Virus record (IMG/VR): IMGVR_UViG_3300029788_000344
DNA length: 64,000 nucleotides
DNA from: a virus
Strand: one strand, 5' to 3'
Part shown: in pieces, positions 20,222 to 43,522 of the stretch
Numbering within the stretch: the first letter of the stretch is position 1
How the letters are laid out: each line of letters begins with the position of its first letter
Notes under the pieces: generated by a model
Seen by the model: the letters and a program-made list of their open reading frames with translations, nothing else
The model's database searches: none
What the model was told of the DNA's origin: nothing
Made by a program: the position numbers and the translations under genes

Positions 20222-20254
20222 TGATGTTAACCTCCTCTCGAATATAGTCTTTTG

Positions 20255-21376: not shown

Positions 21377-21408
21377 CTATCTCACACCTTTCTCACGCTT
21401 ATGAATAC

Positions 21409-22377: not shown

Positions 22378-22391
22378 TGCGGATCACCTCT

Positions 22392-24233: not shown

Positions 24234-25021
24234 TTCACTTCGCTCCTCTCTGCATTATTGTGCCAACTGGTAATCATAGATTTTAGGCTACTTTCGTCAA
24301 CAGTAGGGATGAAACCCGAGAAGTCGGCGAAATGGACAAGCGCATCAGCAGTGGTAATTGCGTCCTTAACGCTTGCAATACAGAACTCCGAAACCATATC
24401 TGTAAGCACGGCGCGGAATACATTTTCATGCTTGATCTCAATGCCATGCTCCTCAACCGTCTTGATAATCAAAGCGCAGATATCTTCCTTGGTATAAGGT
24501 TCGACTACGAGACGCTTGATGTTATCAACGGTTTCGCACAGCTTTTCCAGGAGCTTTTCTTCGTTCCTGTTGGGAGTCGTATGGACAAAGAAGATAACGC
24601 ATGCGTGCTCGCATACCCTCTTGCAGTTCTTCATGAACTCGGAAAGCTGAGTCTCACCGAGGTGAGCAGAGACACCGCTGATATCCATGCCGATAATATT
24701 GCAGTATTCGTTGGTATACACAGCGGCGGAGTCGATTGCGGCGAATGCCTGCTTGAGCTGCTGAAGAGAGCCATCAAAGGCGATTTCGATATAGTCATCG
24801 AGACCGCTGGTGAAGCTCAGGGCGCCTGCTTCCTTGTACTTGTCGGTCATGTATTCGACCAGAGTCGTCCTACCGGAACCGGGGTCGAGAGGAATGATAT
24901 AGTGCTTCGGGCGAAGGCCACACCTCTTATACATATGGGCATTGTTGCATGTACTCTCGATCTCTTTACAGGGGGTGGCAAGCCCAATGGGCTTAGTGAT
25001 GTCATAGTGTTTCATATCGTG
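24230..25021 (-). CDS. P-loop NTPase-like hypothetical protein
   Basis: The motif IIPLDPGSGRTTLVEYM is present. The stop overlaps the VirD4-like start (ATGA). Start set at the MKHYDITKP ATG behind GGAGGC; the track ORF begins at 25066. Confidence 0.45.
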   Translation of the reverse strand, partial: HDMKHYDITKPIGLATPCKEIESTCNNAHMYKRCGLRPKHYIIPLDPGSGRTTLVEYMTDKYKEAGALSFTSGLDDYIEIAFDGSLQQLKQAFAAIDSAAVYTNEYCNIIGMDISGVSAHLGETQLSEFMKNCKRVCEHACVIFFVHTTPNRNEEKLLEKLCETVDNIKRLVVEPYTKEDICALIIKTVEEHGIEIKHENVFRAVLTDMVSEFCIASVKDAITTADALVHFADFSGFIPTVDESSLKSMITSWHNNAERSEVK

Positions 25022-25028
25022 CCTCCAT

Positions 25029-25619
25029 TCACCATTCGGAAATAGGATCGCCAACCTTGTCCACAAGGCCGTATTTGAGAGCTTCTTCTGCGTTCATGAT
25101 GTTGTCGCGCTCGGTATCATTTTCGATCTTCTCGGAAGACTGTCCGGTACAATCAGAGAAAATCTTGTTGAGTTTCGCTCTCGTTTTGAGGATATGTTCG
25201 GCATGAATGCGAATGTCTGTGGCCTGACCGCTTGTTCCGCCAAGCGGCTGATGGATAAGAACCTCAGCATTCGGCTGGCACCAACGCTTACCCTTTGTTC
25301 CGGCGGCGGCCAGAAGAAAGGCTCCCATACTTGCCGCCATGCCGCAAGCGACAGTAACAACATCGCATCTCAATGTCTTCACGGTATCGTAGATGCTGAA
25401 ACCGGCGGAGACCGACCCTCCCGGACTCTGAATGTAGATTGTGATATCATCTTCCGAGTCTCTGGCAAGACACCTGAGGGCGGAGTTCATTACCGTGGCT
25501 ACGTCTTCATCGATTTCACCTGTGAGAGAAATCGTGCGATGGGCGAAGTCGATGTCCAAAGGCGCCAGCATCATGTCCTGACCATTGAGATTAACGGCCT
25601 TCTTCATCAGATAGTTCAT
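25029..25619 (-). CDS. clpP: ClpP-family serine protease (ATP-dependent Clp protease proteolytic subunit homologue)
   Basis: The catalytic Ser motif is [31 protein letters not shown], the His motif is LIHQPLGG, and the Asp region is [23 protein letters not shown]. The length is 196 aa. Confidence 0.85.
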
Positions 25620-25822
25620 ACAATCAAACCCCCCTTATTCTTGCTCACACCCGTTAAGAACCGAGATTCCTGTTCGGACATCTGGTCCATGAGGATAATC
25701 TTCTTTTCAGGGACATAGATTTTCTTCTTTGCCGTAACGATCAGAAAGTTGGGCGATTCTTCAATGACCAAGTCCTTCAGCTCCATGTTCCCGATGCTCA
25801 TGATTCCTTCATAATTCTTCAT
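25616..25822 (-). CDS. Small hypothetical protein (68 aa), translationally coupled to clpP
   Basis: Start set at the MKNYEG ATG behind AAAGGATGA. The stop overlaps the clpP start. The track ORF begins at 26062. Confidence 0.35.
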
Positions 25823-25937
25823 TGTTCTCATCCTTTCTATCTTGTTGTCTCTGAATACGGAGACATCAAGCAAATCTCCACAAGAAGACATTGTTTGTTT
25901 TTGCTTACATCCATCAATACGGAAGATTACGAAAAAT

Positions 25938-25975
25938 CTCCAAAAGAAAAGAAGAGAGCGGGGTTGCTCTCTTCT
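25938..25975 (-). terminator. Rho-independent terminator (minus strand) separating two operons
   Basis: The stem GAAGAGAGC/GCTCTCTTC is 9 bp with a 6-nt loop. A T-rich tract (TTTTCTTTTGG) follows on the minus strand. It lies after the 26050-26754 gene. Confidence 0.5.
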
Positions 25976-26049
25976 CAGTTTCAGACAAAGCGGATGAGGA
26001 ACACAAAGAAATTCTGGAATGGATCGAAATCTAATTAAGTAGCATCCTC

Positions 26050-26754
26050 CTAGTTTCCCCACAGGGCGTTCCCGCCTGTGTGCCCGACAGAATGATCATC
26101 TTGTGATACTAGGTCAAAACTACCTGTTTCAGGATTGTGCTGCCATGTGAAACCCTCAGGCGTATATCCCTGCGGGTAATCCATTCTTTCCATTGCTCCA
26201 AAAGTTATGCCCTGCAGTTTTTCGGGACTATCATACATATGATCCTGAAAATCCTCTCTGCAGGCGCTGAACTGCTGGTGAAGGCTCATATCGTTCGCAG
26301 CACTTCCAAGTTCAACGTGGTGCTTGCTATCAAATTCGGGGAAAACCCCCTCGACAGATAGCCCATCGGTAAGCTCCGCTGTTCGTCTTTCAAACGAGAC
26401 GCCGTTTTCAGATTCAAGGCCATCGAGAGCCATGTTGCGGGTGGTTATTGGAATGGAGTTGCCTGGTACGAATTCACCTCCATCATAATGCCGCTCAATA
26501 TAATCGGCGGCTTTGTCAAAGCCATAAGAGCGAGCATAATCTGCTGCTTTTTCTGCTTCGGATTGAATATCACTGTCACCGAATGCTGACGTCAACGAAA
26601 GGTCTGGAGTAGCTCCAGCGCCGATGCTTTCAGCCGTGCCAATGTTGATATCATCTGTTTCTGCGGGATCAAAATCAGTCCAATCACTCGTCTCTGGCAC
26701 ATCGATCCCATCAGTTTCAGAAAATTCTGTTGATGTGTCATTGAATTCATTCAT
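26050..26754 (-). CDS. Acidic hypothetical protein (234 aa)
   Basis: The protein is D/E/T/S-rich (pI clearly acidic). It is the last gene of the long operon. No motif was recognised. Confidence 0.4.
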   Translation of the reverse strand: MNEFNDTSTEFSETDGIDVPETSDWTDFDPAETDDINIGTAESIGAGATPDLSLTSAFGDSDIQSEAEKAADYARSYGFDKAADYIERHYDGGEFVPGNSIPITTRNMALDGLESENGVSFERRTAELTDGLSVEGVFPEFDSKHHVELGSAANDMSLHQQFSACREDFQDHMYDSPEKLQGITFGAMERMDYPQGYTPEGFTWQHNPETGSFDLVSQDDHSVGHTGGNALWGN

Positions 26755-29290
26755 TGCCGTTTCCTTCCTTTCCGTGATTATTCATATCTGTCAAGAGCTT
26801 TTTGACGGTCTGCTCCCCAAACGAGATACCATTTTCCATAGAGCATTTTCTTAAGAGATGAACAGCAATGCAGCTACATTTCTTTCTGAACATAGCCGCA
26901 TTCTCAGTATTAATACGAAATGATAAAGCAGACGGGATGCGGATAATGTGTGCGGCAACCTCTTCCGGAGTGCTCAGTTTGAGCTGCCGCTCGGCAAATA
27001 TCTGTTCTGCAAACATATTTGCTTCTTCTCGAACAGCAGCTGAGCAATGGTTACACCCTGCTTTTTCACAGAAAGCGAACGGACAATAGTCCTTGGCATG
27101 GGCGGTCAAATACTTTGAGTGTGTTTTGACTATATGTTCATCCGAAACATGCTTCATACGTTCATTTTCTGGCAAATAATCCATTCTGGTGGGCAGAGCC
27201 GATCTAAGAAAACGGTTTTTAAGCACGAGCTCTCCAGCGGACATCAGCGGGAGAACGTCACGGAGGTTGGTATCCGCTCCAATGTGTTCTCTCAGCATTT
27301 CCGCCTCCTCGCCACTTAGCCTAAAGGAGATAATATTGTCAACATTATCGAGCATTCGTCCGCCGACACGCGAGGGGGATTGATCCGAAAAGATAACACC
27401 GACTCCGTATGCCCTGATTTCAGTAATAATGTTGATCATTAACTGTGTCATAGTGCTGTTCAGAGCTTTTTCCTCCTGCGTTGCACCCTCTCCTTGATCC
27501 AGCAAAGCGTGAGCTTCATCGATCAAAACGATATTTTTAAGCCGGTGATCGCTCTGTCTTGTGGATTTCAAATAGGCCAGTATGCTAATGAGAGTCAAAG
27601 CTGAAACTAACGATTTTTGCTCTGGCTCAAGACTTCCCATTTCGAGAACTACGCATCCGTTCAAAAGATCCTCCACAGATGTAGAATGTATCGTATCAAA
27701 CGTGCGAGGACACCTCTCAATCAGACTTTGAAGCCTGAAAGCGCCTCCGGACATCATATTTCCTTTTACTTCATTGCTGTAACTGGATCTGGAAATAACG
27801 CGCTTAAAGACTCGGACAAAGTCAGCCATATCAAAAATGGAGACATTACCGTCCTCACTCGTACTTATGTCTGTCCAGCCGTTCAGCGTATATGCCTCTG
27901 AAATCGCCTTTTCAAAAAGCGCCGGCAACGGATCGGGCAAGGAAAAAGCGGCCTTAAACGCGGACAGCAAACTGCTTCTGTATTCACCGAGAGGCACATC
28001 CTTTGGGACATAAAACGGGTTGATAAGCAATGGAACTACTGGACGTTCCACCGTAAAGACCCTGCTGTCTTTCATGCCGGCGACCAGATCGCGATATTCA
28101 CGTTTGACCGGTTCCAATATCAAAACAGGAATACCGCGACTCTGGAACTGCGTTATCAGCTTCTTCAAGAGAGTGGTTTTTCCAACACCCGATTTCCCCA
28201 TTACAGCGGTGTGGAGTAACAGTTGCTCAAGAGGAACAAATAACCTTTTCGACGAATATACGGATTGTCCCAGATACAGACCCTCTCTATCGTTGTTAGT
28301 CAGCTGTTCGGGTAAGAGATCCACTTCTGGCATCAAAGAGAATGCGTTCCTATCGGTACCGATGAAGTAGTTGCCTTGCGTCGGCAACTGAAAGATTTGT
28401 GAAATCTCATCCGATGTCCATTTGCGCAGACTTGCCGCATCTGATTTCTTAAGCTCGTGAGAGACTTTCCAAGGCTGGTTATAAATGCTGTACTTCTGAT
28501 ACGCTGAAACAGCAATAGTCCGAAAGGCTGTCCCGTGTACGGACTGCTTTATTCTGGCGGTAACCAGTGCAGCACTGGTTACCGTCCCTGCAACGACAAG
28601 GTTTACTTTGGCGAAAGGATTTGCGACTTTCTGTGCATAATATTTCCATCGATCTGCCGACGCCACAGCGAGGCTGTCACGCATATTTGGTACTATGCCA
28701 TCCACTGCTTGTGAACAATGAGCAGCGTTTTTTGCAATCAGTCGTCGTTCGTCATCAGACAACAGCGCAGGAATAATCTGAATACATAAGCCACAGCCGG
28801 AGCCATCCAAAACGGAGTAAATCCGCTTCCAGTCGACACTTTCGACCACAGACGGCGATTTATACGTTTCCTGTACGCCGTATTCCTGAATATCCTGTTT
28901 CATTAATGCCCAGACCGAGCCTGCATCCATTTCGGAAATATGCTCTCTGTAGCCTTCAAAGGACACTTCCTCAGCCGTGAAGCCGGACTGATGAAGAAGC
29001 GAAAGGATACCTTTTTCGAGAGCCTCCTGACGGACAACACAATCATGTTCAGAACTGTCATGGGTTCTGAGCGTAAGCAAATGATGAATACGGCTGCCTG
29101 CGTTTCTTCCCGCGATTCGGAGAATCTCAATTGCCGTTTGCCCATTTCCCGCAGAGGATAGATAGCAAGCATCTTCACAAATTGTTTTTGCAAGCGTTAA
29201 GCCGACTTCATTGTCGTCTGAGATAGGAACTGCCTTAATGCGATATGAAGTCAGGACAAAGTATTCTCCTCCATCAAAAAACTTCTTCAT
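26747..29290 (-). CDS. HerA/FtsK/VirB4-superfamily ATPase (847 aa) with an unrecognised approximately 380-aa N-terminal domain and a Cys-rich C-terminus
   Basis: Walker A reads LLHTAVMGKSGVGKTTLLKKL. Walker B reads NIVLIDEAHALL about 210 aa downstream. An arginine-finger-like segment reads RAYGVGVIFSDQSPSRV..NIISFRL. The C-terminus has CPFAFCEKAGCNHC. Confidence 0.65.
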   Translation of the reverse strand: MKKFFDGGEYFVLTSYRIKAVPISDDNEVGLTLAKTICEDACYLSSAGNGQTAIEILRIAGRNAGSRIHHLLTLRTHDSSEHDCVVRQEALEKGILSLLHQSGFTAEEVSFEGYREHISEMDAGSVWALMKQDIQEYGVQETYKSPSVVESVDWKRIYSVLDGSGCGLCIQIIPALLSDDERRLIAKNAAHCSQAVDGIVPNMRDSLAVASADRWKYYAQKVANPFAKVNLVVAGTVTSAALVTARIKQSVHGTAFRTIAVSAYQKYSIYNQPWKVSHELKKSDAASLRKWTSDEISQIFQLPTQGNYFIGTDRNAFSLMPEVDLLPEQLTNNDREGLYLGQSVYSSKRLFVPLEQLLLHTAVMGKSGVGKTTLLKKLITQFQSRGIPVLILEPVKREYRDLVAGMKDSRVFTVERPVVPLLINPFYVPKDVPLGEYRSSLLSAFKAAFSLPDPLPALFEKAISEAYTLNGWTDISTSEDGNVSIFDMADFVRVFKRVISRSSYSNEVKGNMMSGGAFRLQSLIERCPRTFDTIHSTSVEDLLNGCVVLEMGSLEPEQKSLVSALTLISILAYLKSTRQSDHRLKNIVLIDEAHALLDQGEGATQEEKALNSTMTQLMINIITEIRAYGVGVIFSDQSPSRVGGRMLDNVDNIISFRLSGEEAEMLREHIGADTNLRDVLPLMSAGELVLKNRFLRSALPTRMDYLPENERMKHVSDEHIVKTHSKYLTAHAKDYCPFAFCEKAGCNHCSAAVREEANMFAEQIFAERQLKLSTPEEVAAHIIRIPSALSFRINTENAAMFRKKCSCIAVHLLRKCSMENGISFGEQTVKKLLTDMNNHGKEGNGNE

Positions 29291-29300: not shown

Positions 29301-29930
29301 CTATATGAACGGGTTATGTTGGTAGCTCGGCACAGCACTCATAAGTTGCTTAATCACCTTAACAGGACGTGAACTGAACACCTTGTACAGGCAGCCAACT
29401 AGACCACCTATACAAAGTACCGCAACAAAATAGCTCTCTGCGCCCAAAAGTATCCCGGCAATGATAGCACAGAACGCGGTGGCAAAGATCCATGCGAGGA
29501 TTCTTGTCCTTTGTTTGTTGAGTTCTCCTCTGTGTTTCTCACAGCGCCGGCTGCCGTATCTGATCATTTCACTGGTTACTCCGTTGAGCCTCACCAGTTT
29601 ATCCCACGCTTCAGAGGCGATGGCTCTATTGGCGGTATTATCCATGTCTATGTCCCCGAAGTCCTGAGTTGCTGCCCGTAGGACAGCGAGATACAGTTTC
29701 TTCTCTGTGGGGTACTGGCTCATTAACGGTCTCAGAAGGGCGATAGTCTGTTCCCAGTTGCCGGCAGCAAAGTGACTCATGGCTTGAGAATATGTCCTGT
29801 CATACTGCATGAGTTGTTGATCTTGCTGCGGATCATAAACTGGGTGTCCACACGAGTCGCACTCCACTCTCATTCTGCTTCGACTGTAGTGAAAACTGGA
29901 GCAGCCACAGCGACTGCAGACGCGATCCAT
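29301..29930 (-). CDS. Protein with an N-terminal zinc ribbon and a C-terminal two-TM anchor
   Basis: The N-terminus has CSRCGC...CDSCGH. The C-terminus has the hydrophobic segments ILAWIFATAFCAIIAGILLGA and FVAVLCIGGLVGCLY. Confidence 0.45.
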   Translation of the reverse strand: MDRVCSRCGCSSFHYSRSRMRVECDSCGHPVYDPQQDQQLMQYDRTYSQAMSHFAAGNWEQTIALLRPLMSQYPTEKKLYLAVLRAATQDFGDIDMDNTANRAIASEAWDKLVRLNGVTSEMIRYGSRRCEKHRGELNKQRTRILAWIFATAFCAIIAGILLGAESYFVAVLCIGGLVGCLYKVFSSRPVKVIKQLMSAVPSYQHNPFI

Positions 29931-30514: not shown

Positions 30515-31612
30515 TTAAAATCTATAACCGCAGATGGGGCAAACGCTATTGCCACGCATCACGTTTCCGTTACACGACGGGCAACGCTTGTACCGATCAG
30601 GCATGGGCGGAGGCGATTCCGCAGACGAGGTGTTTCCCTGGGCGTCAGACGATGCACCGCCAAACATATCCGTGTGCCGAGTCATTTCGGTCAGCGGTTC
30701 CCGCAGCGCCGGAAGCATCTGTGAGAGCATCATCATCTGCATCATCATGGGAGCCATTCCGCCAGAGTTCCCGTTGGAATTACATGCAGCGCCACCAGTA
30801 GGAGCCTGCCCTCGAGAAGGAATTCCCGTCATCATTTCACCAAGAGTGCGGTTATTGACGTTACCGTTCCATACTCTTTGTAGGTTATCCAGTTCGAGGT
30901 CGGTTCTGGTTTTCCCGCCGGCATACTCCTGCTCCAGGCTATAAAGTCTCTGCATCTCTGAATTGGGAACATTGATGGCCACAAGGTCAAATCGCTCCAG
31001 CTTGATACCGTACTCAGACATGCCAGACCGAATTGCAGTCGTTGCCATGTTTCCAATATGGGAAAGCTGGCTGTTAAACTCCGGGATTTCCAGCTTACTG
31101 ATCTCCCTGGAGATGGCTTCCCTAATGGGGGCAAGGACCATCTGTTCCACACACGGATCAATATCCTCATCCGAAAACGCAGAGCTGTAACTTCCGACCA
31201 GCTTTGTGAGAACCTTCAGAGGATCGGAGATTGAGAAGGAAAGCTTGCAAGATGCAAGCGCTTTCATTGTGAGACGGAAGCGATGCTCCCGGAAAGGAAA
31301 CTCTCCAGTGCCGAGCTTGACAAACTTCGTTTTCTCCGTCGACACAAAGAACACAGACACCGTGGTTCCGGTGTCTCCGTGGGTCAGAATGTTGCGAAGC
31401 CTTACAAAGAAGGGATCAACGCCTGTGAAGATTTCGTATCTGCCGGGGCCATAGGGGCGCGAAAGCGTACCGTTGATAGCAACGAACGCAGTGGTTCCCG
31501 GAGGGACAACCAGAATACTCCCGTTGACAATCACGGAGTATTGTCCGCATACATCCGGCTGAATTCGGATTAAACCGTTCCCGCCCGGATCTCTGATGAT
31601 TGATTGGTACAT
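30515..31612 (-). CDS. SPFH/band-7-like domain protein with a C-terminal zinc ribbon and a Met/Gln-rich linker
   Basis: Sequences of this YQSIIRDPGGNG...GIKLERFDLVAINVP type are usually annotated as SPFH-domain proteins; this is recalled from memory rather than searched. The C-terminus has CPSCNG...CPICGY. Confidence 0.45.
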   Translation of the reverse strand: MYQSIIRDPGGNGLIRIQPDVCGQYSVIVNGSILVVPPGTTAFVAINGTLSRPYGPGRYEIFTGVDPFFVRLRNILTHGDTGTTVSVFFVSTEKTKFVKLGTGEFPFREHRFRLTMKALASCKLSFSISDPLKVLTKLVGSYSSAFSDEDIDPCVEQMVLAPIREAISREISKLEIPEFNSQLSHIGNMATTAIRSGMSEYGIKLERFDLVAINVPNSEMQRLYSLEQEYAGGKTRTDLELDNLQRVWNGNVNNRTLGEMMTGIPSRGQAPTGGAACNSNGNSGGMAPMMMQMMMLSQMLPALREPLTEMTRHTDMFGGASSDAQGNTSSAESPPPMPDRYKRCPSCNGNVMRGNSVCPICGYRF

Positions 31613-31639
31613 AGTCTCATCTCCTTGTACTTATGATGT

Positions 31640-32614
31640 TTATTTTACGGCCAGGTTTTTCAGAGTGGGATGATAATAGAGCCGGTGATTTCCGCTTATC
31701 CGTTCTTCTGAGAAGGCCCTTTGCGCTTCTTTCAGGCAATCTCCAGACGAGGGACGGTAACTAAAGTGAATCAGTATCGGCGATATGCCTCTCTGCGAAT
31801 CCTTTTTAAGCCGCGCCTTAAGATCGCTATAGGAATGAACACACAGACCATGATGGCTATAGTAGCTCAGTGCTTCCGATGTGCATTCGGGAACGCGGGC
31901 ACATTTGAAGTCGTAATGATCGCTTGAAATCTGATCATCCGACAGGTTCAAGTAATCGAAGCGTACGATCCCGTTCTCAGTTCCATCCCAAGTGACATCA
32001 CAATGGACGGGAGTCCCATTGATCCATGCAATCGTCCAACAATGCCAGCCGCCCGTTTTGGTTCTGCCATAAACCTTGATACAGGGGATGCCGATTCGCC
32101 TGAAGCACAGGAGCAGCAGTGCGTTTTGACCGTCACACACCCCCGCTGAGAGCAGGATCGGCCCCACAATGCTGTGGTCTCTCACATCTCCATTGTTTGT
32201 ATATACGATGCTTTTGGCGATACGTTCGTAAACAAGCGCTTCTCGTTCAAGCATGGAAAGATCGGCCGTTCCACGAACGATCTGGAAAATTTTTTTCCGG
32301 AGCTGCTGCCTGATTCTATCAATAATCTCAGGGGCATACAGGATTGGGTACTCCAGAGTGCCGGTCCGACCTCTACGGGTGAATTCACTCTGAAACCCTA
32401 GAAAGAAGAATTCCGGGCGATCGTCCCTGATCGCTTTGTAGGCTGCAAAGCAATCAGATGCAGATGTTTCTGGATTACTTATGGAGAATGTCGTCTTACC
32501 TGAGTAATCCCCCCGGAGAAGCTGGGCATTGATGCGGTCATAGAACGCCTGCCCCTGACGAGTGAGGAATCCCCTATAGTATTCAGAACCCAGCTTCTCC
32601 GGTATCTTCACCAT
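31640..32614 (-). CDS. Transglutaminase-like cysteine peptidase superfamily protein
   Basis: The Cys-His-Asp triad context reads GVCDGQNALLLLCFRRIGIPC ... GGWHCWTIAWING ... HCDVTWD. Confidence 0.65.
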   Translation of the reverse strand: MVKIPEKLGSEYYRGFLTRQGQAFYDRINAQLLRGDYSGKTTFSISNPETSASDCFAAYKAIRDDRPEFFFLGFQSEFTRRGRTGTLEYPILYAPEIIDRIRQQLRKKIFQIVRGTADLSMLEREALVYERIAKSIVYTNNGDVRDHSIVGPILLSAGVCDGQNALLLLCFRRIGIPCIKVYGRTKTGGWHCWTIAWINGTPVHCDVTWDGTENGIVRFDYLNLSDDQISSDHYDFKCARVPECTSEALSYYSHHGLCVHSYSDLKARLKKDSQRGISPILIHFSYRPSSGDCLKEAQRAFSEERISGNHRLYYHPTLKNLAVK

Positions 32615-32620
32615 TATGAT

Positions 32621-33484
32621 TCACTCCCTTCTGCCCTTGGGAATCACCAGCTTGATCTTCAAGCACCCCTTACCATCAATACGGGTGTGCAGTCTGATAT
32701 CTCCAGCATAACCGCGTGTGCGAAGGCACTGACTGGTAAGGCGAACGATTTCATCGGTAGGAGGAATCAGGCGCTTGTCTTCGCTGAGATTCTCCTGAGG
32801 AGCTACGCCACGCGAAAAAACAATGATTTCCGCCTCGGCAAAGTCTTTGCCAATGCTGCCAAGCATCTTCTTCCGAATGGGGTCGCATACGAAGATACAG
32901 ACGGGAGACGATGCTGCGCGTGCAGCACCACTCACTTTGTCGGTTCCACTGTAGAACACGCCGAGGTCAGGGTGAGTGTGTCCTTCCAAAACGAACTCCG
33001 AAGGTCCACAGAGCTTAAGAAAAGGGTCAACCTGGTAACCGAAGGCATCCGTATTGAATTTGGATTCGTTTCTCAGGAACTCCTCACGATGATATTCGAG
33101 AAAATCGAGTCCCGGATTGTATTCTCCATTGGGACCAAGGTTTGATGCTCCGACCGGATTACGATTCATGGTCTGGATCTCGATGATGTGGCTGATAATC
33201 GTAATCACGTTACCGTCATCATCGACCAGAAAATGGCCCATCCCATAGAGTTTCTGCTCATAGACATTCATCGGGGATCGTCTTCCATATGAAATGATCG
33301 AGTTAAGCTCCTGTTCGGGTTCGGGAAGGATGATAACCTTGTTGCGTCCTTTGCCATGCCTTTCCTTGACATACACATCACCGCACTTGCTTTTGATGAT
33401 GTCCAGAGCTTTTTTAAGGCTGCATACCGGATAAGTTTTGGGCTCCGAAGGACGCCTGGTAGGCATAGGGGTATAATTGGTCAC
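32621..33484 (-). CDS. JAB/JAMM (MPN+) metallopeptidase with a roughly 130-aa N-terminal extension
   Basis: The JAMM motif reads EGHTHPDLGVFYSGTD (H-x-H-x7-S-x2-D). An upstream glutamate is present. Confidence 0.7.
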   Translation of the reverse strand: MTNYTPMPTRRPSEPKTYPVCSLKKALDIIKSKCGDVYVKERHGKGRNKVIILPEPEQELNSIISYGRRSPMNVYEQKLYGMGHFLVDDDGNVITIISHIIEIQTMNRNPVGASNLGPNGEYNPGLDFLEYHREEFLRNESKFNTDAFGYQVDPFLKLCGPSEFVLEGHTHPDLGVFYSGTDKVSGAARAASSPVCIFVCDPIRKKMLGSIGKDFAEAEIIVFSRGVAPQENLSEDKRLIPPTDEIVRLTSQCLRTRGYAGDIRLHTRIDGKGCLKIKLVIPKGRRE

Positions 33485-33500
33485 AATACTTCATCTCCTC

Positions 33501-34133
33501 TCAGTGGTGTCTGCCGGGAAGGGGCGGAGGTGCGGTCACAGGCTTGGCTGTCACCTTGCGAGGCGGAAGGGCTGTCAGTTCAGAGGCATAAAGCAGTTTG
33601 GGATGAATCATGGGGAAACGTTTGGCAGCAACACCATCCTTATGCCACTGTGCCACGCTGCTATTTGCCATGCTTTCATATCGAGTCACACCGGGATCGT
33701 GAATCATATCGCGCACGAGCTTGTCCACGACTGTAGTCAGGGAACTCGTGAAGGGAATCCAGGTGTCAATGCAGGCGCTCCCGGAGCGAAAAACATTAGG
33801 ACTCGCAAGATAATGATCCGAGGCATACGAGGCCGATACGGATTTCAGCGGATAACCGGGATAGCAAATGATATCCGCCGTCATAGATTCACAAGCTTTA
33901 GGCGTAGAGTCCTCGTTTGTGGTGAGGTAATGCGAAGGGGCCTTAACCGTCACCTTGAGGTGCATCGCCTCGCCGGTTTTCGCCTGAACCCTCTGAATCG
34001 TTACATACTTGGGGTTGTATTTCCGGACGATTTCCTGGTAATCATTCTTCAAAGCCTCGGCAGAGTCTCCTTCGGTGATGGAGACTTCTCTCGTGTGACC
34101 GTATTCATCGGTATAGTTGGTTGAGTAACTCAT
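33501..34133 (-). CDS. UBC-like E2 ubiquitin-conjugating enzyme homologue
   Basis: HYLASPNVFRSGSACIDTW aligns to the eukaryotic E2 active-site block HPNI..NGSICLDIL, with the catalytic Cys in GSACID. It sits between the E1 and JAB genes. Confidence 0.55.
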   Translation of the reverse strand: MSYSTNYTDEYGHTREVSITEGDSAEALKNDYQEIVRKYNPKYVTIQRVQAKTGEAMHLKVTVKAPSHYLTTNEDSTPKACESMTADIICYPGYPLKSVSASYASDHYLASPNVFRSGSACIDTWIPFTSSLTTVVDKLVRDMIHDPGVTRYESMANSSVAQWHKDGVAAKRFPMIHPKLLYASELTALPPRKVTAKPVTAPPPLPGRHH

Positions 34134-34146
34134 GTTGAACCTCCTT

Positions 34147-35418
34147 TTAGAATTTATGGATTTCGTGCATTTTCAGGTGATCCTTATCGAGCGCAAAGAC
34201 TGTCCTAGTGATCTTCTCGGTATCCAAAAAGTCAAGAGCTCCGTTACGCTGAATCACCTCGATATGGGCGCCAAGCGGATACCCCAGGTCGTACAGTGTC
34301 ATCTTCTGGATTTCTTCACTGCAGCCGAGGTCAAAAGCATGCAGGATCTCGCCACGAGAGAAGGTTGCACTGTTATGAGCGCGTTTCCCCTGGGTGCTAC
34401 ACTTATCGCACAGAAGATCGTTAAGAAAGACACGCCCCTCATGCTTCATCACCTTGATGGCGGTCCCACACGAATGGCACACATCATCCACGATAAAGCC
34501 GGCATGGACAATCTTCCTGTAATTCAGGCGATGAACAGACATCTCAAAATCCGCCGTGCCGAGGATAGCAGCAATCTGATCCATTGCCTCCTTCAGAGTG
34601 ACATCTGTAACGTTACCATGAAGCCATTCGATTCTTGCGGGCGGATGGATTGCACATCCGGGGCAATTACGCTTCCGCAAGGGGTGAGCAACGCTCAACT
34701 CCAGGTGAGGGTAGGCTGTATAGGTCAGTCTACGATTCATCACGCCGTCATGCCCGATGATGTTGGCTCTGAGCTGTTCAGCACTGAGATGCGCGGCCAT
34801 GGAGCTGGCAAGGTTGGATGTACGGACGATTTCATTGACACCGTCAATTTGTCTAACCTGCGGCCCGACACAGGATGTCCGAATGCTGCTGTCCTTCATC
34901 CACCCCTCATCAATCAAGCACCGAAGGCAGAATTCGGTATTGTCCAGAATCACGCTCTGTGCCATTTCATCATGGGTTCCATCCATGATGACAATCGGTC
35001 GCCGATCTTCAGGAAGCTGTCGGATCAACTCGTTCAGAAGCACTTTGGCGTCGAAATTATCCACTGCCGCGACGACATAACTGTAATCAGCAAATGCCTC
35101 TGGACCGAGCTTACAAAGGTCGCCGTCGATACCGTTGGAAGTGCAGTCATCGTCTAGCAGTGGCTGGACTCGATCAGACGCACATTCCGCCTTGTTTCGT
35201 CCGGCATCTTCCGGCGTGCGGATCAGGCAGCCGTGTTTGGCTGCATTTTCAAGCGTGAAGCAATCGAAATCCATTGCGTCAGGAGAAAGCCCCATTTTAG
35301 CGAATTTCTCCATGAGATGTGTTCCTACCGCTCCGGTGCCGATAACCAGCACATGCAGATTATGGAACAGTGGGCGATACTCCGAGAGCTTCAAGGCATT
35401 ATAAACAACTTTGTTCAT
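34147..35418 (-). CDS. ThiF/MoeB/E1-like Ubl-activating enzyme
   Basis: The Rossmann fold reads HVLVIGTGAVGTHLMEKFAKMGL. The downstream E1-type D-x-D/N-R-like segment is present. The C-terminal CxxC pairs are NCPGC, HSCG and CDKC. Confidence 0.75.
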   Translation of the reverse strand: MNKVVYNALKLSEYRPLFHNLHVLVIGTGAVGTHLMEKFAKMGLSPDAMDFDCFTLENAAKHGCLIRTPEDAGRNKAECASDRVQPLLDDDCTSNGIDGDLCKLGPEAFADYSYVVAAVDNFDAKVLLNELIRQLPEDRRPIVIMDGTHDEMAQSVILDNTEFCLRCLIDEGWMKDSSIRTSCVGPQVRQIDGVNEIVRTSNLASSMAAHLSAEQLRANIIGHDGVMNRRLTYTAYPHLELSVAHPLRKRNCPGCAIHPPARIEWLHGNVTDVTLKEAMDQIAAILGTADFEMSVHRLNYRKIVHAGFIVDDVCHSCGTAIKVMKHEGRVFLNDLLCDKCSTQGKRAHNSATFSRGEILHAFDLGCSEEIQKMTLYDLGYPLGAHIEVIQRNGALDFLDTEKITRTVFALDKDHLKMHEIHKF

Positions 35419-35445
35419 GTTTGATTATCTTTCTTTTCCAGGCTG

Positions 35446-35874
35446 TCAAAGCAACTTCCCGTTGCTCTTAAATCGGTGCCCCCTGGAACAGCGGTAACAG
35501 TTCTCTCCGCTGTCCCAGAAGATCACCTGCCCCTCGCCCGGGACATTCCGGAGCTTATCAATAGGGCAGCACGGAAACTGAGTGGGTTTGATTCCACGGG
35601 GTCCATAGCCAGCCCCAGCCGTCCTTCGGGCTGCATTGGCGATTGCCGACGCGGAAGAACGGCGGGGCGGCAGTGCTCTTGCAGCAGAAGAACTGCGTGT
35701 TCTGGTTTGAGCATGGCTGACTGTTGGTGAGGGTATGCCTACATTGACCCGAGGCGGGAGCGGAGGAGGTACATTGGCAGTTTTTTCTTTGCGTCCCTTT
35801 TTCGTAATGCATGCGATGATGACTCCACAGGCAATCAATCCCAAACCGACAAGGATGCATATTGTCACCATCAT
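35446..35874 (-). CDS. Single-pass membrane protein with a Pro-rich linker and a C-terminal zinc ribbon
   Basis: The N-terminal TM segment reads MMVTICILVGLGLIACGVIIACI. The linker PPPLPPRVNVGIPSP follows. The C-terminus has CCPIDK...CYRCSRGH. Confidence 0.45.
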   Translation of the reverse strand: MMVTICILVGLGLIACGVIIACITKKGRKEKTANVPPPLPPRVNVGIPSPTVSHAQTRTRSSSAARALPPRRSSASAIANAARRTAGAGYGPRGIKPTQFPCCPIDKLRNVPGEGQVIFWDSGENCYRCSRGHRFKSNGKLL

Positions 35875-35891
35875 GTCAGCCCCCCTTGTAT

Positions 35892-36191
35892 TTACGCTAC
35901 GCCGGCATTGTCGCTGATTGCCAGGACATCACCCTCCTGCAGATCAAGTCCTCCTACCGTTTCATTGGTGTCGCTGGTAGATGCTCCGGTGCGCTTGTTT
36001 TCGAAGAGAATCTTGCTGTCGTGCGGATTAACCCCGATATCAACGGCATATTCCTGGAGAACCTGTCCGAGAGTGTTCGTGCCGTACACAGCGGCCTGAG
36101 GATAAGTCGTGCCGGTTACCTTGTTGAGCAGGTCGATCTCAAAGGCACTTTCGGCGGCGGCGAGGGCGCCGTCAATGGGATAGTTCGTCAT
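35892..36191 (-). CDS. Ubiquitin-like beta-grasp protein with a 2-residue C-terminal extension (...SDNAG-VA)
   Basis: The residues 20-99 align collinearly to ubiquitin (ours/Ub): [14 protein letters not shown] / [41 protein letters not shown] / [44 protein letters not shown] / [21 protein letters not shown]. Confidence 0.55.
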   Translation of the reverse strand: [99 protein letters not shown]

Positions 36192-36312
36192 AACTTTTAT
36201 CTCCTTTTGTTAAGTATTTTGTGGCTTCCCACGACTACAGCAGCGGTCACAGCTGCTGTAGTTTCGGCCGGTTGCCGTCCAGCTCTCGTTCAGATGGGAG
36301 GAGATCACGAAC

Positions 36313-36948
36313 TCAACAAGCGATGTCGTCAGAAGAATCCACCAACTCGAGATCTTCAAGATCCAGTTCGACATCATCGGGTCCACCATCGGGCTCCTCA
36401 TCATCGGAAGCACCAGTGGCATTCATCTGGGCTTCCATCATCTTGCGGAGTTCCTGAAGCCGCTGCATCAGCTCAGCAGGAATGCTATGCCCCTGGATAT
36501 CAAGCTCCTCCTCAGAGTAGAGTGCCTTCATGAAGATGCTGTACTCGGATTTGAGGATATGCATCATGCGAGCGAAAATCTCGAAAGCCATCTCGCCAAT
36601 GCCGTTATCGGGGCTATGCATGGGGAAGTCATACTCAACATTGATGTCACCATCCGTATCAAGATAGAACTTCATGTAGCGGATCTTGTGGTTGAGCACA
36701 TTGCAGGCTTCCATAACACGGGTTCTCTTCTCCGTGGGAGTGTTGGTGATCAGACCGAAGATGCCTGCCGTAACGTCGTTGTCATTATCGCGGCTGATGA
36801 ACCTCATGATCACGTTGGGCCCGCAGTCGACGGAAAAACCTGCCAGCAGCTGTTCGATGCCATGATGACTGACAACGTCGAACTTGACGCCGCGCTCCTC
36901 AAAGGTCTCTGCAATAAGGTTGGTTGCGTTGAATTCGTACTTGTTCAT
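36313..36948 (-). CDS. Hypothetical protein with a strongly acidic C-terminal tail (possibly a YbjN/T3SS-chaperone-like fold)
   Basis: Start set at the MNKYEF ATG behind AAAGGATG; the track ORF starts at 37101. The C-terminus reads DDEEPDGGPDDVELDLEDLELVDSSDD. The fold assignment is tentative. Confidence 0.4.
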   Translation of the reverse strand: MNKYEFNATNLIAETFEERGVKFDVVSHHGIEQLLAGFSVDCGPNVIMRFISRDNDNDVTAGIFGLITNTPTEKRTRVMEACNVLNHKIRYMKFYLDTDGDINVEYDFPMHSPDNGIGEMAFEIFARMMHILKSEYSIFMKALYSEEELDIQGHSIPAELMQRLQELRKMMEAQMNATGASDDEEPDGGPDDVELDLEDLELVDSSDDIAC

Positions 36949-37110
36949 TTTCGTACATCCTTTCGCTTTTAGTATTTTGGTGGGTTTGTGTTTGCTTTCT
37001 GTCCCTGTATACGGGAGCGTTTGGGGAATCTCCACTTTTTCAATTCTTTTTTGATTTCTGTGGTCGAGATATGAGAATATATCTCGTCTTTTCTCGACCA
37101 CAGAGTCTGT

Positions 37111-37845
37111 TCACCGACGCTTCGTCTTATAAGGGATAGCCACCCCGTCGACGATTTTGCAGATGTCATTAGCGTCAAACACACCATCGCTCTTGTCCTC
37201 GAAGCGGACATAGATTTTCTGCGTCCAGTAATCGTGGGGGATGGCATCCTCAACGATTCCGAATCCTCTCTTGGGATGGAGGATCTCATCGCCGATTTCA
37301 TAGTAGGCATAAGGGTTGCGTTCTTTGATACGGGTGAGAGTCTTGGAGGCAGTCTCAGAATCGACCGGCGCCTGATGCCACTTATTCAGATAGGCAAGCA
37401 CGTCGAATTCGACCACATCATCAGCGTTATATGCGGCAATCGCGTCAGTAAGGGACCACTTTTTGCTGATGGAGTCCGAATTGTTGTGGCAGCGGGTGGG
37501 ATCGGCACCGACCATCTTGCAAGCCCACTTCCAGTCATCCCCATGGGATGTCTCTCGACGGGAGTGGCCAATGTATCTTTCAAGATGAGCGACATCAACA
37601 TAGTAGTGGGCGTACTCATGCCGGATAACATCGATCACCTCGGCTTCCCCGGTGGTCGAGTCGTTGAAAAACTTACGGTTGAACCCGAACGCTTTAGGCT
37701 CAACATAACGGTAGTGCCCGAGGAACCACCCATAACTGTTGAAAGCGATGGGCAACGCAGCTCCGTTGAGTCCGGTTTTCTCATCCAGCTTGCGGATGAT
37801 GGAGCGAATCTTGTCCTCAGTCCAGGTTTTGGTGATAGTAGACAT
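37111..37845 (-). CDS. SprT-like (WLM/DUF45) zinc metalloprotease domain protein; first gene of the long operon
   Basis: The HExxH motif sits in the SprT context EVIDVIRHEYAHYYV with downstream His residues. Confidence 0.6.
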   Translation of the reverse strand: MSTITKTWTEDKIRSIIRKLDEKTGLNGAALPIAFNSYGWFLGHYRYVEPKAFGFNRKFFNDSTTGEAEVIDVIRHEYAHYYVDVAHLERYIGHSRRETSHGDDWKWACKMVGADPTRCHNNSDSISKKWSLTDAIAAYNADDVVEFDVLAYLNKWHQAPVDSETASKTLTRIKERNPYAYYEIGDEILHPKRGFGIVEDAIPHDYWTQKIYVRFEDKSDGVFDANDICKIVDGVAIPYKTKRR

Positions 37846-43508: not shown

Positions 43509-43522
43509 ATTATTTATCCTCC

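What the first reader, a model, noticed from the sequence alone, without database searches (positions are those of the whole stretch)
32621..36191. Complete bacterial ubiquitination-like module: Ubl with a C-terminal VA pro-sequence, ThiF-like E1, UBC-like E2 and JAB peptidase
The 99-aa protein aligns collinearly with ubiquitin through all beta-grasp elements. It ends ...SDNAG-VA, whereas ubiquitin ends ...LRGG. This suggests a precursor whose Gly terminus is exposed by a peptidase.

The neighbours fit the same pathway. The E1 has a Rossmann GxGxxG and CxxC pairs. The E2 has the block SPNV..SGSACIDTW matching HPN..GSICLDIL. A JAMM peptidase (HTHPDLGVFYSGTD) could perform both processing and deconjugation.

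A TM zinc-ribbon protein sits between Ubl and E1, and a transglutaminase-like peptidase follows JAB. These are candidate target, adaptor or second peptidase components. Bil-type defence systems have this four-enzyme logic, but here it is embedded in a much larger operon.
Basis: partly seen in the sequence, partly recalled or inferred. Interest (0 to 1): 0.8.

Follow-up and report, generated by a model that had tools for sequence, protein, structure and literature searches.

The report
New bacterial ubiquitin-like conjugation cassette
Five adjacent genes on a mobile island of a gut Clostridia bacterium encode a full ubiquitin-style protein-tagging kit (tag, activating enzyme, conjugating enzyme, trimming peptidase, membrane zinc-finger partner) that fits none of the bacterial ubiquitin-like families compared here.

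Summary
On the minus strand, 32621-36191 encodes five proteins:
- a single-pass membrane protein with a one-zinc finger;
- a single-domain ThiF/MoeB-type E1 (Pfam 7e-15), with an invariant zinc tetrad, an invariant Cys183 and its own zinc-ribbon C-terminal domain;
- a JAMM peptidase with an invariant HxHx7Sx2D motif.

These five genes are the constant core of a small family: 88 clusters among 1.84 billion proteins, in gut and rumen Clostridia.

New here:
- some relatives encode tandem di-Ubl precursors;
- the terminal Val-Ala, not the Gly, is the invariant part of the Ubl tail, so "VA pro-sequence" is plausible but unproven;
- a PP[LM]PxR motif recurs in the E2, JAB and three membrane proteins;
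- the flanking modules (HerA/T4CP-type ATPases, nucleases, membrane proteases) are swapped between loci.

The cassette fails the membership tests for Bil, Bub and CBASS. I read it as a new variant of bacterial Ubl conjugation, probably a membrane-tethered conflict system. Its target and biological role are not shown.

The parts
35892..36191 (-). Ubl: 99-aa beta-grasp ubiquitin-like protein with tail ...SDNAG-VA
35446..35874 (-). Single-pass membrane protein: N-terminal TM helix, two PP[LM]PxR motifs, C-terminal one-zinc finger (QFPCCPxDKxRN...CYxCSxGH). Candidate membrane anchor, adaptor, E3-like factor or target.
   Evidence: Found between Ubl and E1 in every locus with enough sequence. The C-terminal Cys/His pattern is conserved in 28 orthologues. 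No Pfam, NCBIfam or PADLOC hit.
34147..35418 (-). E1: single ThiF/MoeB-type adenylation domain (res 19-252) with a zinc tetrad (C164xxC167, C252xxC255), invariant crossover-region Cys183, and a C-terminal domain with a second zinc ribbon (C314xxC317...C337xxC340)
   Evidence: Pfam ThiF 7.2e-15. Profile against PDB: Cap2 E1 domain 3.9e-8, UBA3, TcdA, Uba1, Uba2, Uba5, ThiF, MoeB. Invariant residues. An E1-E2 fusion relative exists, P0352.
33501..34133 (-). E2: UBC-fold conjugating enzyme with SPN in place of HPN, catalytic Cys121, and a disordered C-terminal tail carrying two PP[LM]PxR motifs
32621..33484 (-). JAMM/MPN+ metallopeptidase (287 aa) with an N-terminal PMPxRR motif and a long N-terminal region before the HxH motif
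   Evidence: Invariant H169xH171x7S179xxD182, plus invariant E55 and E76 as candidates for the catalytic Glu. 37/37 family members hit Pfam Prok-JAB, all below the gathering score (best 4.5e-5).
31640..32614 (-). Transglutaminase-like (papain-fold) protein. Frequent sixth gene; second peptidase or transamidase.
   Evidence: Pfam Transglut_core 1.6e-6, above cut-off. Invariant C160, H191 and D206 in 29 orthologues. Present directly after JAB in most loci.
30515..31612 (-). SPFH/Band_7_1 protein with a low-complexity region, a PPPMPDR motif and a C-terminal zinc ribbon (YdjI-like architecture)
   Evidence: Pfam Band_7_1 3.6e-16 and Zn_ribbon_3. Motif conserved in 20/22 orthologues. YdjI architecture taken from PMC8581546.
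29963..30514 (-). Multi-pass membrane protein ending in ...PLPPRNR
   Evidence: Hydrophobic segments seen in the sequence. C-terminal motif present in 17/17 orthologues.
29301..29930 (-). N-terminal zinc ribbon, TPR-like region and C-terminal TM helix
   Evidence: Weak TPR and zinc-ribbon matches. Conserved CxxCG...CxxCG and NPF end.
26747..29290 (-). 847-aa HerA/FtsK-superfamily P-loop ATPase (defence-type HerA/DndH-like)
   Evidence: Pfam DUF87, P-loop_TraG and HerA_C. PADLOC mad8 1.7e-16, DndH 2.4e-13, HerA 3e-12. Weak PDB hits to DUF87/HerA defence ATPases and DptH.
26050..26754 (-). WHH/colicin-DNase-type HNH nuclease, overlapping the ATPase gene by 8 nt
   Evidence: Pfam Colicin-DNase 3.9e-11 and WHH 3.4e-7. 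Conserved WQHNPE...HTGG.
19811..26062 (-). Distal operon genes: small ORF 25616-26062 (start uncertain), ClpP-like 25029-25619, 278-aa protein, VirD4/TraG-like ATPase 22392-24233, M50 metalloprotease 21409-22377, 373-aa TM protein, 136-aa protein
   Evidence: Pfam CLP_protease 1.7e-64, T4SS-DNA_transf 2.1e-32, Peptidase_M50 1.1e-15. Overlapping or closely spaced genes. Terminator-like hairpin at 19351-19376.
36313..37845 (-). Proximal operon genes: SprT-like metalloprotease 37111-37845 and YbjN-like protein 36313-37101
   Evidence: Pfam SprT-like 9.4e-6 and YbjN 7.5e-7. Conserved only in the closer loci. Terminator-like hairpin just upstream at 37913-37940.

Best explanation
The five genes at 32621-36191 are a complete, self-contained ubiquitin-like protein-conjugation cassette of a family I did not find described in the searched literature. 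They form the constant core of a roughly 18-kb operon carried on an island integrated at tRNA-Ser in a gut Clostridia genome.

Shown here by fold, motif and conservation:
- a beta-grasp Ubl;
- a MoeB/ThiF-type single-domain E1 with a zinc tetrad and an invariant Cys183;
- a canonical UBC-fold E2 with invariant Cys121;
- a JAMM peptidase with a complete metal site;
- a membrane-anchored one-zinc-finger protein always encoded between the Ubl and the E1.

Inferred mechanism:
1. The JAB trims Ubl precursors. These are single Ubls with short tails, or tandem di-Ubls in some relatives. The cut is at or next to the conserved ...x-Val-Ala tail.
2. The E1 adenylates the new C-terminus and takes it as a thioester on Cys183.
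3. The Ubl passes to E2 Cys121 and then to lysines of targets.
4. The JAB also reverses the modification.

The E2 tail, the JAB N-terminus, the TM zinc-finger protein, the SPFH protein and a multi-pass membrane protein share a conserved PP[LM]PxR peptide. I therefore infer that the enzymes are assembled on one docking surface at the membrane. That surface is possibly the E1 C-terminal domain; among the core proteins, only the E1 and the Ubl largely lack the motif.

The flanking genes are swapped between loci: HerA/DndH-like and VirD4/TrwB-like ATPases, WHH or EndoNS nucleases, and ClpP, M50 or M48 proteases. I infer they are sensor and effector parts of a conflict system (defence or exclusion against incoming DNA) that the Ubl cassette switches on or restrains.
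For: Folds and motifs:
-.

Functional linkage of E1 and E2:
- a relative is an E1-E2 fusion, P0352.

Constant five-gene core:
- 32 loci from genome contigs (one representative genome per species), 3 metagenome loci and 1 IMG/VR contig.

Precursor logic:
- tandem di-Ubl genes in L001, L002, L004, L005, L006, L016 and L018, and a second adjacent Ubl gene in L022;
- variable extensions after the conserved VA;
- precedents for JAB pre-processing in Type II Bil (PMC10557695), Bub (PMC11601596) and Caldiarchaeum (PMC5654768).

Shared motif:
- 9 copies in the operon proteins against 1.0 +/- 1.0 in shuffles;
- kept in 29/30 E2, 24/27 TM zinc-finger, 20/22 SPFH, 17/17 TM183 and 21/26 JAB orthologues;
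- found in only 3/33 E1, 1/30 Ubl and 1/28 TGase orthologues.

Membrane setting:
- TM helices in the sequence, and a YdjI-like SPFH protein followed by two membrane proteins (PMC8581546).

Conflict-system reading:
- the ATPase is closest to defence HerA, DndH and mad8;
- non-homologous ATPase + nuclease + metalloprotease modules replace one another next to the same core;
- the island also carries BrxL-like, WYL and PAPS-reductase genes, and there is an S24 repressor and an integrase at tRNA-Ser.
Against: - No biochemical step is shown.
- PADLOC has no model matching the Ubl, E2 or JAB, so the defence role rests on context only.
- The recurrent neighbours include VirD4/TraG-type coupling proteins, hallmark genes of conjugation. 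The cassette may therefore serve the element's own transfer rather than host defence.
- The residue that is activated is unknown, because Gly97 is not conserved.
- The receptor of the PP[LM]PxR motif is a guess. The E1 C-terminal domain has no detectable homologue, and no structure prediction was available for it.
- The JAB matches Pfam Prok-JAB only below the gathering score, and its profile finds no solved JAMM protein by sequence.
Confidence: 0.7

Rival explanations
1. It is a Bil-type (BilABCD) anti-phage system. The Ubl would be conjugated directly by the E2 to a phage structural protein to block assembly, and the remaining genes would be unrelated neighbours.
For: - Same four activities.
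- The Ubl tail ...NAGVA is identical to that of M. brachiatum Type II BilA, and that protein is the best PDB sequence hit.
- JAB pre-processing is known for Bil (PMC10557695).
- Phage tail-fibre tagging is described for Type I Bil (10.1101/2023.09.04.556158).
Against: - The E1 is one adenylation domain starting at residue ~19, not IAD-AAD-CYS.
- Gene order is Ubl-TMZn-E1-E2-JAB, not Ubl-E2-DUB-E1.
- The E2, JAB and E1 profiles do not retrieve BilB, BilC or BilD from the PDB.
- The E2 links to canonical UQ_con, not to CEHH or Prok-E2 families.
- An extra membrane zinc-finger gene is part of the core, and the neighbours co-vary with it.
Confidence: 0.15
2. The cassette belongs to the mobile element's own transfer or establishment machinery. 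It would tag or regulate coupling-protein (VirD4-like) complexes, transferred proteins, or recipient defences during conjugation, rather than defend the host.
For: - Two VirD4/TraG-like genes in the window (22392-24233 and 43523-45286).
- Homologues of both are linked to the core in many loci, often immediately upstream.
- SprT-like and YbjN-like genes, typical of conjugative-element leading regions (own knowledge), sit just upstream.
- The island has an integrase at tRNA-Ser.
Against: - No relaxase, VirB6/VirB8-like channel protein or cell-wall hydrolase was recognised in the window.
- The 847-aa ATPase scores best with defence HerA/DndH/mad8 models, not with VirB4.
- Nuclease partners (WHH, EndoNS_2) look like effectors.
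- No plasmid record carries the E2.
Confidence: 0.2
3. On the Ubl end specifically: Val-Ala is not a pro-sequence. Ala99 is the mature, activated C-terminus. The JAB would then only cut after ...VA in tandem or extended precursors, and remove conjugates.
For: - V98-A99 are the invariant tail residues, whereas position -3 varies (G/V/I/D/N/P/R/S/E/C).
- The sequence after VA is variable or absent: 92 of the tails tabulated from 134 sequences end exactly at VA.
- An internal ...xVA is retained before the second repeat even in diverged tandem genes.
- Cap2, whose E1 domain is the best solved match to this E1, conjugates a cyclase through a C-terminal Ala (10.1101/2023.09.29.560134).
Against: - Nearly all characterised Ubls are activated at Gly.
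- The nearest sequence relative's family (Type II BilA) is cut after the conserved Gly, with up to nine residues beyond it (PMC10557695).
- A Gly97 end gives the same four-residue tail after the last strand as ubiquitin (secondary structure; own comparison).
Confidence: 0.4
4. It is a sulfur-carrier or biosynthetic system of the ThiS/MoaD-ThiF/MoeB type, with a JAB that unmasks the carrier and no protein conjugation.
For: - The E1 is MoeB/ThiF-like in size and zinc tetrad.
- JAB-processed sulfur carriers exist (own knowledge; Iyer 2006, PMC1779556).
Against: - A UBC-fold E2 with an invariant catalytic Cys is always present.
- There is no rhodanese domain on the E1, no C-terminal Gly-Gly, and no biosynthetic genes in the operon.
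Confidence: 0.03

Closest known systems
Type II BilABCD (CEHH/6C) bacterial ubiquitination system (Chambers et al., PMC10557695)
   Same: - Separate Ubl, E1, E2 and JAB genes.
- The Ubl tail ...NAG-VA equals that of M. brachiatum BilA.
- JAB pre-processing of the Ubl is documented.
- Ubls with several beta-grasp domains occur.
- No RING E3.
   Different: - BilD is IAD-AAD-CYS, whereas this E1 is a single adenylation domain with a MoeB-like zinc tetrad plus a novel zinc-ribbon C-terminal domain.
- Gene order differs.
- BilB is the diverged CEHH type, whereas this E2 links to canonical UQ_con.
- Bil has no membrane zinc-finger partner and no PP[LM]PxR motif network.
- Bil occurs mainly in Rhizobiaceae, this family in gut and rumen Clostridia.
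Type I Bil / operon type 6d of Iyer et al. 2006 (PMC1779556; 10.1101/2023.09.04.556158). The equation of Type I Bil with 6d is from my own memory and was not checked.
   Same: - Standalone Ubl, JAB, E1 and E2.
- The E2 lacks the classical His of HPN and has an invariant His downstream of the Cys; here S111-P-N and H145.
- The JAB has an extra N-terminal region.
   Different: - No PADLOC hit for the Ubl, E2 or JAB, and no Pfam Prok-E2 hit for the E2 family.
- No equivalent of the conserved alpha-helical protein of 6d was recognised.
- E1 architecture and gene order differ.
- Direct sequence comparison with Type I proteins could not be done here.
Eukaryote-like E1/E2/RING-E3/Rpn11 operon of Caldiarchaeum and some bacteria (PMC5654768)
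   Same: - Compact operon with a pro-Ubl trimmed by a JAMM peptidase.
- MoeB-sized E1.
- Canonical UBC-type E2: distant relatives of this E2 hit Pfam UQ_con at 3e-15 and carry HPN.
- A small zinc-binding protein is encoded in the operon.
   Different: - The zinc protein here is membrane-anchored and binds only one zinc by its ligand pattern, so it is not a RING.
- The Ubl has no Gly-Gly.
- The E2 has SPN.
- The cassette is coupled to ATPase, nuclease and protease modules on a mobile element.
Type II CBASS Cap2/Cap3
   Same: - The E1 adenylation domain is the best solved sequence match (3.9e-8).
- JAB partner.
- Conjugation through a non-Gly (Ala) C-terminus, and a membrane PspA/YdjI-associated target, are documented (10.1101/2023.09.29.560134).
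   Different: - Cap2 is an E1-E2 fusion of Atg7/Atg3-like type acting on a CD-NTase.
- Here there is a dedicated beta-grasp Ubl, a separate UBC-type E2, and no cyclase.
Bub (6E/DUF6527) pathways (PMC11601596)
   Same: - Ubl (often multi-domain), E1, E2 and JAB processing after a conserved residue.
   Different: - Bub E1 and E2 lack catalytic Cys and work through oxyesters, and Bub carries a DUF6527 serine protease.
- Here both cysteines are invariant and no DUF6527 is present.
B. subtilis PspA-YdjGHI (SamGHI) membrane-stress scaffold (PMC8581546)
   Same: [quoted passage not shown]
   Different: - Only the SPFH domain homology was tested (Band_7_1).
- Homology of the two membrane partners was not tested.
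- There is no PspA gene in the operon, and the gene order is reversed.

Membership tests
Ubiquitin-like beta-grasp modifiers | beta-grasp fold (beta-beta-alpha-beta-beta...) with a flexible C-terminal tail | tested here: met
Ubiquitin-like beta-grasp modifiers | C-terminal Gly (usually Gly-Gly) as the activated residue | tested here: inconclusive
   There is a single Gly at -3 here. That position is not conserved in the family, whereas the terminal Val-Ala is.
E1 / ThiF-MoeB adenylating enzymes | Rossmann-type adenylation domain with GxGxxG, conserved Arg/Lys and Asp; Pfam ThiF above the gathering score | tested here: met
   ThiF 55.2 bits against 28.1. Invariant G27, G29, G32, D50, D52, N58, K61, K76, D120 and N121.
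E1 / ThiF-MoeB adenylating enzymes | Catalytic Cys for the thioester | tested here: inconclusive
   Invariant C183 lies between the two CxxC pairs, where the ThiF/MoeB crossover-loop Cys lies. No structure or assay is available.
UBC / E2 conjugating enzymes | UBC fold | tested here: met
UBC / E2 conjugating enzymes | Active-site Cys about 10 residues after the HPN motif | tested here: met
   C121 is invariant in 40 diverse relatives. His is replaced by Ser in the close family, while HPN is kept in distant members.
JAMM/MPN+ metallopeptidases | E...HxHx7Sx2D metal-binding motif | tested here: met
   H169, H171, S179 and D182 are invariant, with E55 and E76 invariant upstream. 37/37 members match Pfam Prok-JAB, but below the gathering score. 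The fold was not predicted.
BilABCD (Type I/II) | E1 (BilD) with inactive + active adenylation domains and a mobile CYS domain | tested here: not met
   The single ThiF domain begins at residue ~19 of 423. BilD is not retrieved by the E1 profile at E <= 1e-3.
BilABCD (Type I/II) | Gene order Ubl-E2-DUB-E1, four-gene operon | tested here: not met
   The order is Ubl-TMZn-E1-E2-JAB, with a fifth core gene.
BilABCD (Type I/II) | Sequence homology of all four proteins to BilA-D | tested here: not met
   Only the Ubl shows a weak hit (E 0.11) to a BilA. The E2 and JAB profiles find no Bil chain at E <= 10. PADLOC has no hit for the Ubl, E2 or JAB.
BilABCD (Type I/II) | Protects against phage by Ubl conjugation | not testable with these tools
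   This needs infection assays.
Bub (6E/DUF6527) | E1 and E2 without catalytic Cys (oxyester chemistry) and a DUF6527 serine protease | tested here: not met
   Invariant C183 (E1) and C121 (E2). No DUF6527 among the Pfam hits of the operon.
Type II CBASS (Cap2/Cap3) | E1-E2 fusion acting on a CD-NTase, with a JAB Cap3 | tested here: not met
   Separate E1 and E2, and no cyclase in the operon. Only weak PADLOC E1-E2 hits, confined to the adenylation domain.
Caldiarchaeum-type Ub/E1/E2/RING/Rpn11 operon | RING-type E3 (two zinc sites) and a Gly-Gly ubiquitin | tested here: not met
   The TM zinc-finger protein has only about four conserved ligands and no RING hit. The Ubl lacks Gly-Gly.

The most novel reading that the evidence does not exclude
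Gut and rumen Clostridia mobile elements carry a distinct class of ubiquitin-like signalling machine, not found described in the searched literature. A canonical UBC-type E2, a MoeB-like E1 and a JAMM peptidase would be assembled on membrane scaffolds through one shared proline-rich docking peptide. The machine would be fed by polyubiquitin-like tandem precursors. It may activate the tag at a C-terminal Ala rather than Gly. It would control interchangeable DNA-translocase, nuclease and protease effectors against incoming DNA.
Probability: 0.3. Interest if true: 0.8.

Novelty: new variant of a known kind. Interest (0 to 1): 0.65.

Why it matters
Bacterial ubiquitin-like conjugation has only recently been shown experimentally, for CBASS, Bil and Bub, and each family revealed different chemistry. 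This cassette would add a further family.
- Its E2 is the closest to the canonical eukaryotic UBC type; distant members still carry HPN and hit Pfam UQ_con.
- Some relatives have polyubiquitin-like tandem genes.
- A membrane anchor is an obligatory component.
- A short docking motif may explain how separate E1, E2 and DUB proteins are held together without gene fusion.
- It lives in human-gut and rumen Firmicutes, where such systems have not been studied.
- It offers a compact five-gene system in which the Gly-versus-Ala question of Ubl activation, and the link between tagging and nuclease or ATPase effectors, can be tested directly.

Tried and rejected
- Sequence searches of the E2 (single sequence and 41-sequence profile) and of the JAB profile against all PDB sequences gave only chance hits such as dynein, antibody light chains and a glucosidase. 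The fold assignment therefore rests on predicted structure and on transitive profile links.
- Pfam Prok-E2_A-E families: no member of the close E2 family matches them.
- PADLOC and NCBIfam have no model for the Ubl, TM zinc-finger protein, E2 or JAB.
- tblastn of the E2 against 72,556 plasmids and 50,697 phage genomes found nothing. IMG/VR holds one contig with the same operon, so a phage origin was rejected.
- A sulfur-carrier reading was rejected (see rivals).
- I looked for a second copy of the tRNA-Ser 3' end to delimit the island and found none in the window.
- The E1 C-terminal domain (res ~260-423) has no detectable relative in the PDB by profile.
- Literature searches for this gene combination, for DUF2604, and for Lachnospiraceae together with E1/E2/JAB found no description of this family. 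Absence from the searchable library is not proof of absence.

Full report
**1. What is there**

On the minus strand the window carries a tightly packed run of genes from about 37.85 kb to 19.8 kb. Gaps are 0-33 bp or the genes overlap, except for 121 bp before the Ubl gene. Terminator-like hairpins bracket the run at 37913-37940 and 19351-19376.

The finding's coordinates cover exactly five of these genes:
- Ubl, 35892-36191;
- a TM zinc-finger protein, 35446-35874;
- E1, 34147-35418;
- E2, 33501-34133;
- JAB, 32621-33484.

**2. The four enzymatic parts**

*E1.*
- Pfam ThiF scores 7.2e-15 (55 bits, cut-off 28) over residues 19-252.
- In 14-34 orthologues the nucleotide-binding glycines, D50/D52, N58-K61, K76 and D120-N121 are invariant. 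So are the zinc tetrad C164xxC167 and C252xxC255, and C183 lying between the two pairs.
- A C-terminal domain of about 165 residues has a second invariant CxxC...CxxC (314/317, 337/340) and no detectable relative.
- A family profile finds the Cap2 E1 domain (3.9e-8), UBA3, TcdA, Uba1, Uba2, Uba5, ThiF and MoeB in the PDB. It does not find BilD or BubCD.

*E2.*
- There is no Pfam, NCBIfam or PADLOC hit, and no PDB hit by sequence.
- The Foldseek top 50 are all entries containing canonical E2s such as Cdc34, Ube2G, Rad6, Ubc9 and Ubc13.
- A profile search of 1.84 billion cluster representatives finds only 88 relatives.
- The distant relatives carry the classical HPNV..G..C(I/L)G..W block. C121 is invariant in all 40 aligned, and 16 of the 40 hit Pfam UQ_con, best 3.2e-15.
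It aligns S111-P-N113 with H75-P-N77 and C121 with C85.
- One relative, P0352, is an E1-E2 fusion.

*Ubl.*
- The AF2 model has pLDDT 84.6 and a beta-beta-alpha-beta...beta order.
- Family members hit Pfam UN_NPL4, Rad60-SLD and DUF2604.
- The best PDB sequence hit, though weak (E 0.11), is M. brachiatum BilA, whose last residues are also NAGVA.

*JAB.*
- H169xH171x7S179xxD182 is invariant, as are E55 and E76.
- All 37 aligned members match Pfam Prok-JAB, though below its gathering score (best 4.5e-5).
- Its fold was not predicted here.

**3. Family and neighbourhood**

The E2 family occurs in 32 loci of genome contigs (one representative genome per species). All are gut or rumen Clostridia and relatives: Lachnospiraceae, Oscillospiraceae, Ruminococcus, Butyricicoccaceae, Anaerovoracaceae and Erysipelotrichaceae. 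It is absent from the plasmid and phage collections and present on one IMG/VR contig.

A presence table shows three layers:
- Ubl, TM zinc finger, E1, E2 and JAB occur together wherever the contig allows, down to about 50% identity.
- The transglutaminase-like gene (invariant C160/H191/D206), the SPFH protein, a multi-pass membrane protein and a Zn-ribbon/TPR/TM protein follow in most loci.
- HerA-like ATPase + WHH nuclease, and ClpP + 278-aa protein + VirD4-like ATPase (+ M50), follow in many loci.

Other loci replace these accessory genes:
- L009 and L029 carry a non-homologous set: EndoNS_2 nuclease + TrwB-like ATPase + a ~390-aa protein + M48 peptidase, placed on either side of the core.
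- L024 and L027 carry a ~1170-aa Walker-A protein instead.
- A second VirD4-like gene with a 341-aa partner lies at 42483-45286 in the window. In L011, L017, L019 and L022 its homologues sit within about 1-3 kb upstream of the core.

**4.

(a) *Tandem Ubl genes.* In L001, L002, L004, L005, L006, L016 and L018 the Ubl gene encodes two repeats joined as ...[20 protein letters not shown].... L022 has two adjacent Ubl genes.

(b) *The conserved part of the tail is Val-Ala.* Across 134 sequences the tail is x-D-[ND]-[AGC]-x-V-A.
- Val-Ala is invariant.
- Position -3 (Gly97 here) is G in the many close homologues, but V, I, D, N, P, R, S, E or C in divergent ones.
- After VA comes the stop (92 cases), another repeat, or a short variable extension such as GTE, GH, GTDG, AQK, ADAAVV or GTGTSCS.

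(c) *A shared proline-rich motif.* The peptide PP[LM]PxR recurs in the disordered E2 tail (twice), the JAB N-terminus, the TM zinc-finger protein (twice), the SPFH protein just before its zinc ribbon, and the very C-terminus of the multi-pass membrane protein. An ALPTR copy sits in the ATPase.
- There are 9 matches against 1.0 +/- 1.0 in 1000 shuffles.
- It is kept in 29/30, 21/26, 24/27, 20/22 and 17/17 orthologues respectively.
- It is rare in the E1 (3/33), Ubl (1/30) and TGase (1/28).
- It is also seen in the tails of distant E2 relatives.

(d) *The TM zinc-finger domain* (QFPCCPxD[KR]xRN...IFW...CYxCSxGH) is highly conserved. Some distant E2 relatives are fused to a zinc ribbon.

**5. How it most likely works**

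What is shown is the presence of folds, catalytic residues and strict co-occurrence. The chemistry is inferred from established knowledge of E1/E2/JAMM systems and from the bacterial precedents (PMC10557695, PMC11601596, PMC5654768):
1. The JAB trims the precursor.
2. The E1 adenylates the Ubl and forms a Cys183 thioester.
3. The Ubl moves to E2 Cys121 and then to target lysines.
4. The JAB reverses the modification.

Which bond is cut is open.
- Gly97 is supported by the BilA parallel (AG|A in E. aridi; identical NAGVA in M. brachiatum) and by a ubiquitin-length tail.
- Ala99 is supported by the conservation pattern and by Cap2 conjugating a C-terminal Ala (10.1101/2023.09.29.560134).

The shared motif suggests one docking site that brings together the E2, the JAB and the membrane proteins. 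The E1 C-terminal domain is my candidate, because only the E1 and the Ubl largely lack the motif within the constant core. This is inference only.

The SPFH protein and its two membrane partners resemble B. subtilis YdjI/H/G in architecture (PMC8581546). In B. subtilis a CBASS cyclase is conjugated to PspA, whose membrane localisation depends on YdjG/H/I, and YdjI peptides were found in the same preparations (10.1101/2023.09.29.560134). That is a precedent for membrane-scaffold-linked conjugation.

The interchangeable ATPase, nuclease and protease modules look like the sensor and effector parts of a conflict system. So do the ATPase's best matches to defence-type HerA, DndH and mad8 and the defence-rich island (BrxL-like, WYL, PAPS-reductase). 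The recurrent VirD4-like genes keep open a role in the element's own transfer.

**6. Comparison and novelty**

The cassette works like Bil and like the Caldiarchaeum-type systems. It fails the defining features of Bil (IAD-AAD-CYS E1, gene order, sequence), of Bub (no catalytic Cys, DUF6527) and of CBASS (E1-E2 fusion, cyclase). Its zinc protein is not a RING. Full-text searches found no description of this gene set.

I rate it a new variant of a known kind. The enzymology is expected. New are the family itself, its membrane partner, the tandem precursors, the Val-Ala tail, the docking motif and the effector coupling.

**7. Limits**

- There is no experiment.
- The UbcH5B sequence used came from memory.
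- ORF starts in related loci were taken as the first start codon, which lengthens some N-termini.
- Direct comparison with Type I Bil proteins was not possible.

Noticed in passing
window 14831-16326: tRNA-Ser (cga) is followed immediately by a tyrosine integrase (Phage_integrase 9e-29). This marks one end of an integrated island. No second copy of the tRNA 3' end lies in the window, so the island exceeds 49 kb.
   Followed up: partly
window 48084-63815 (minus strand): A probable DNA-modification or BREX/Dnd-like defence cluster: WYL regulator, class-V aminotransferase (cysteine desulfurase-like), BrxL-like Lon ATPase (4e-118), a DUF7863/7864 protein, a 1404-aa protein with no Pfam hit, a 782-aa PAPS-reductase-domain protein, and a 943-aa protein combining an RNA-polymerase alpha-CTD with sigma-70 region 4.
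   Followed up: no
window 42483-45286: A second VirD4/TraG-like ATPase with a 341-aa partner. Homologues of this pair sit within about 1-3 kb upstream of the Ubl core in other genomes (L011, L017, L019, L022), so it probably belongs to the same super-operon.
   Followed up: partly
window 9609-12674 (+ strand): A 1021-aa SIR2_2-domain protein in a four-gene plus-strand cluster outside the island. Possibly another defence system.
   Followed up: no
window 38742-39089: A 115-aa protein with an N-terminal zinc ribbon and a ribosomal L7/L12 C-terminal-like domain (2.6e-5), next to a small HD-domain ORF.
   Followed up: no
window 30000-38000 versus 38000-64000: GC content is 0.50-0.52 over the Ubl operon but 0.40-0.45 in the rest of the island, which suggests a mosaic origin.
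   Followed up: no
proteins P0352, P0406, P0414, P0418, P0430, P0425: Relatives of the E2 occur as an E1-E2 fusion, next to a ClpP fragment, with C-terminal zinc ribbons, and possibly fused to a Ubl. These are domain-fusion hints for functional partners.
   Followed up: partly
L009 11436-15547; L029 3562-7719: A conserved four-gene module (EndoNS_2-like nuclease, TrwB-like ATPase, a ~390-aa protein, M48 peptidase) flanks the Ubl core on either side in two distant genomes. It replaces the HerA/WHH/ClpP/VirD4/M50 set of the window.
   Followed up: partly
window 25616-26062: The ORF after the WHH nuclease is called as 148 aa from a GTG here but as 68 aa in related loci. It may be the nuclease's immunity protein, and its true start is uncertain.
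   Followed up: no
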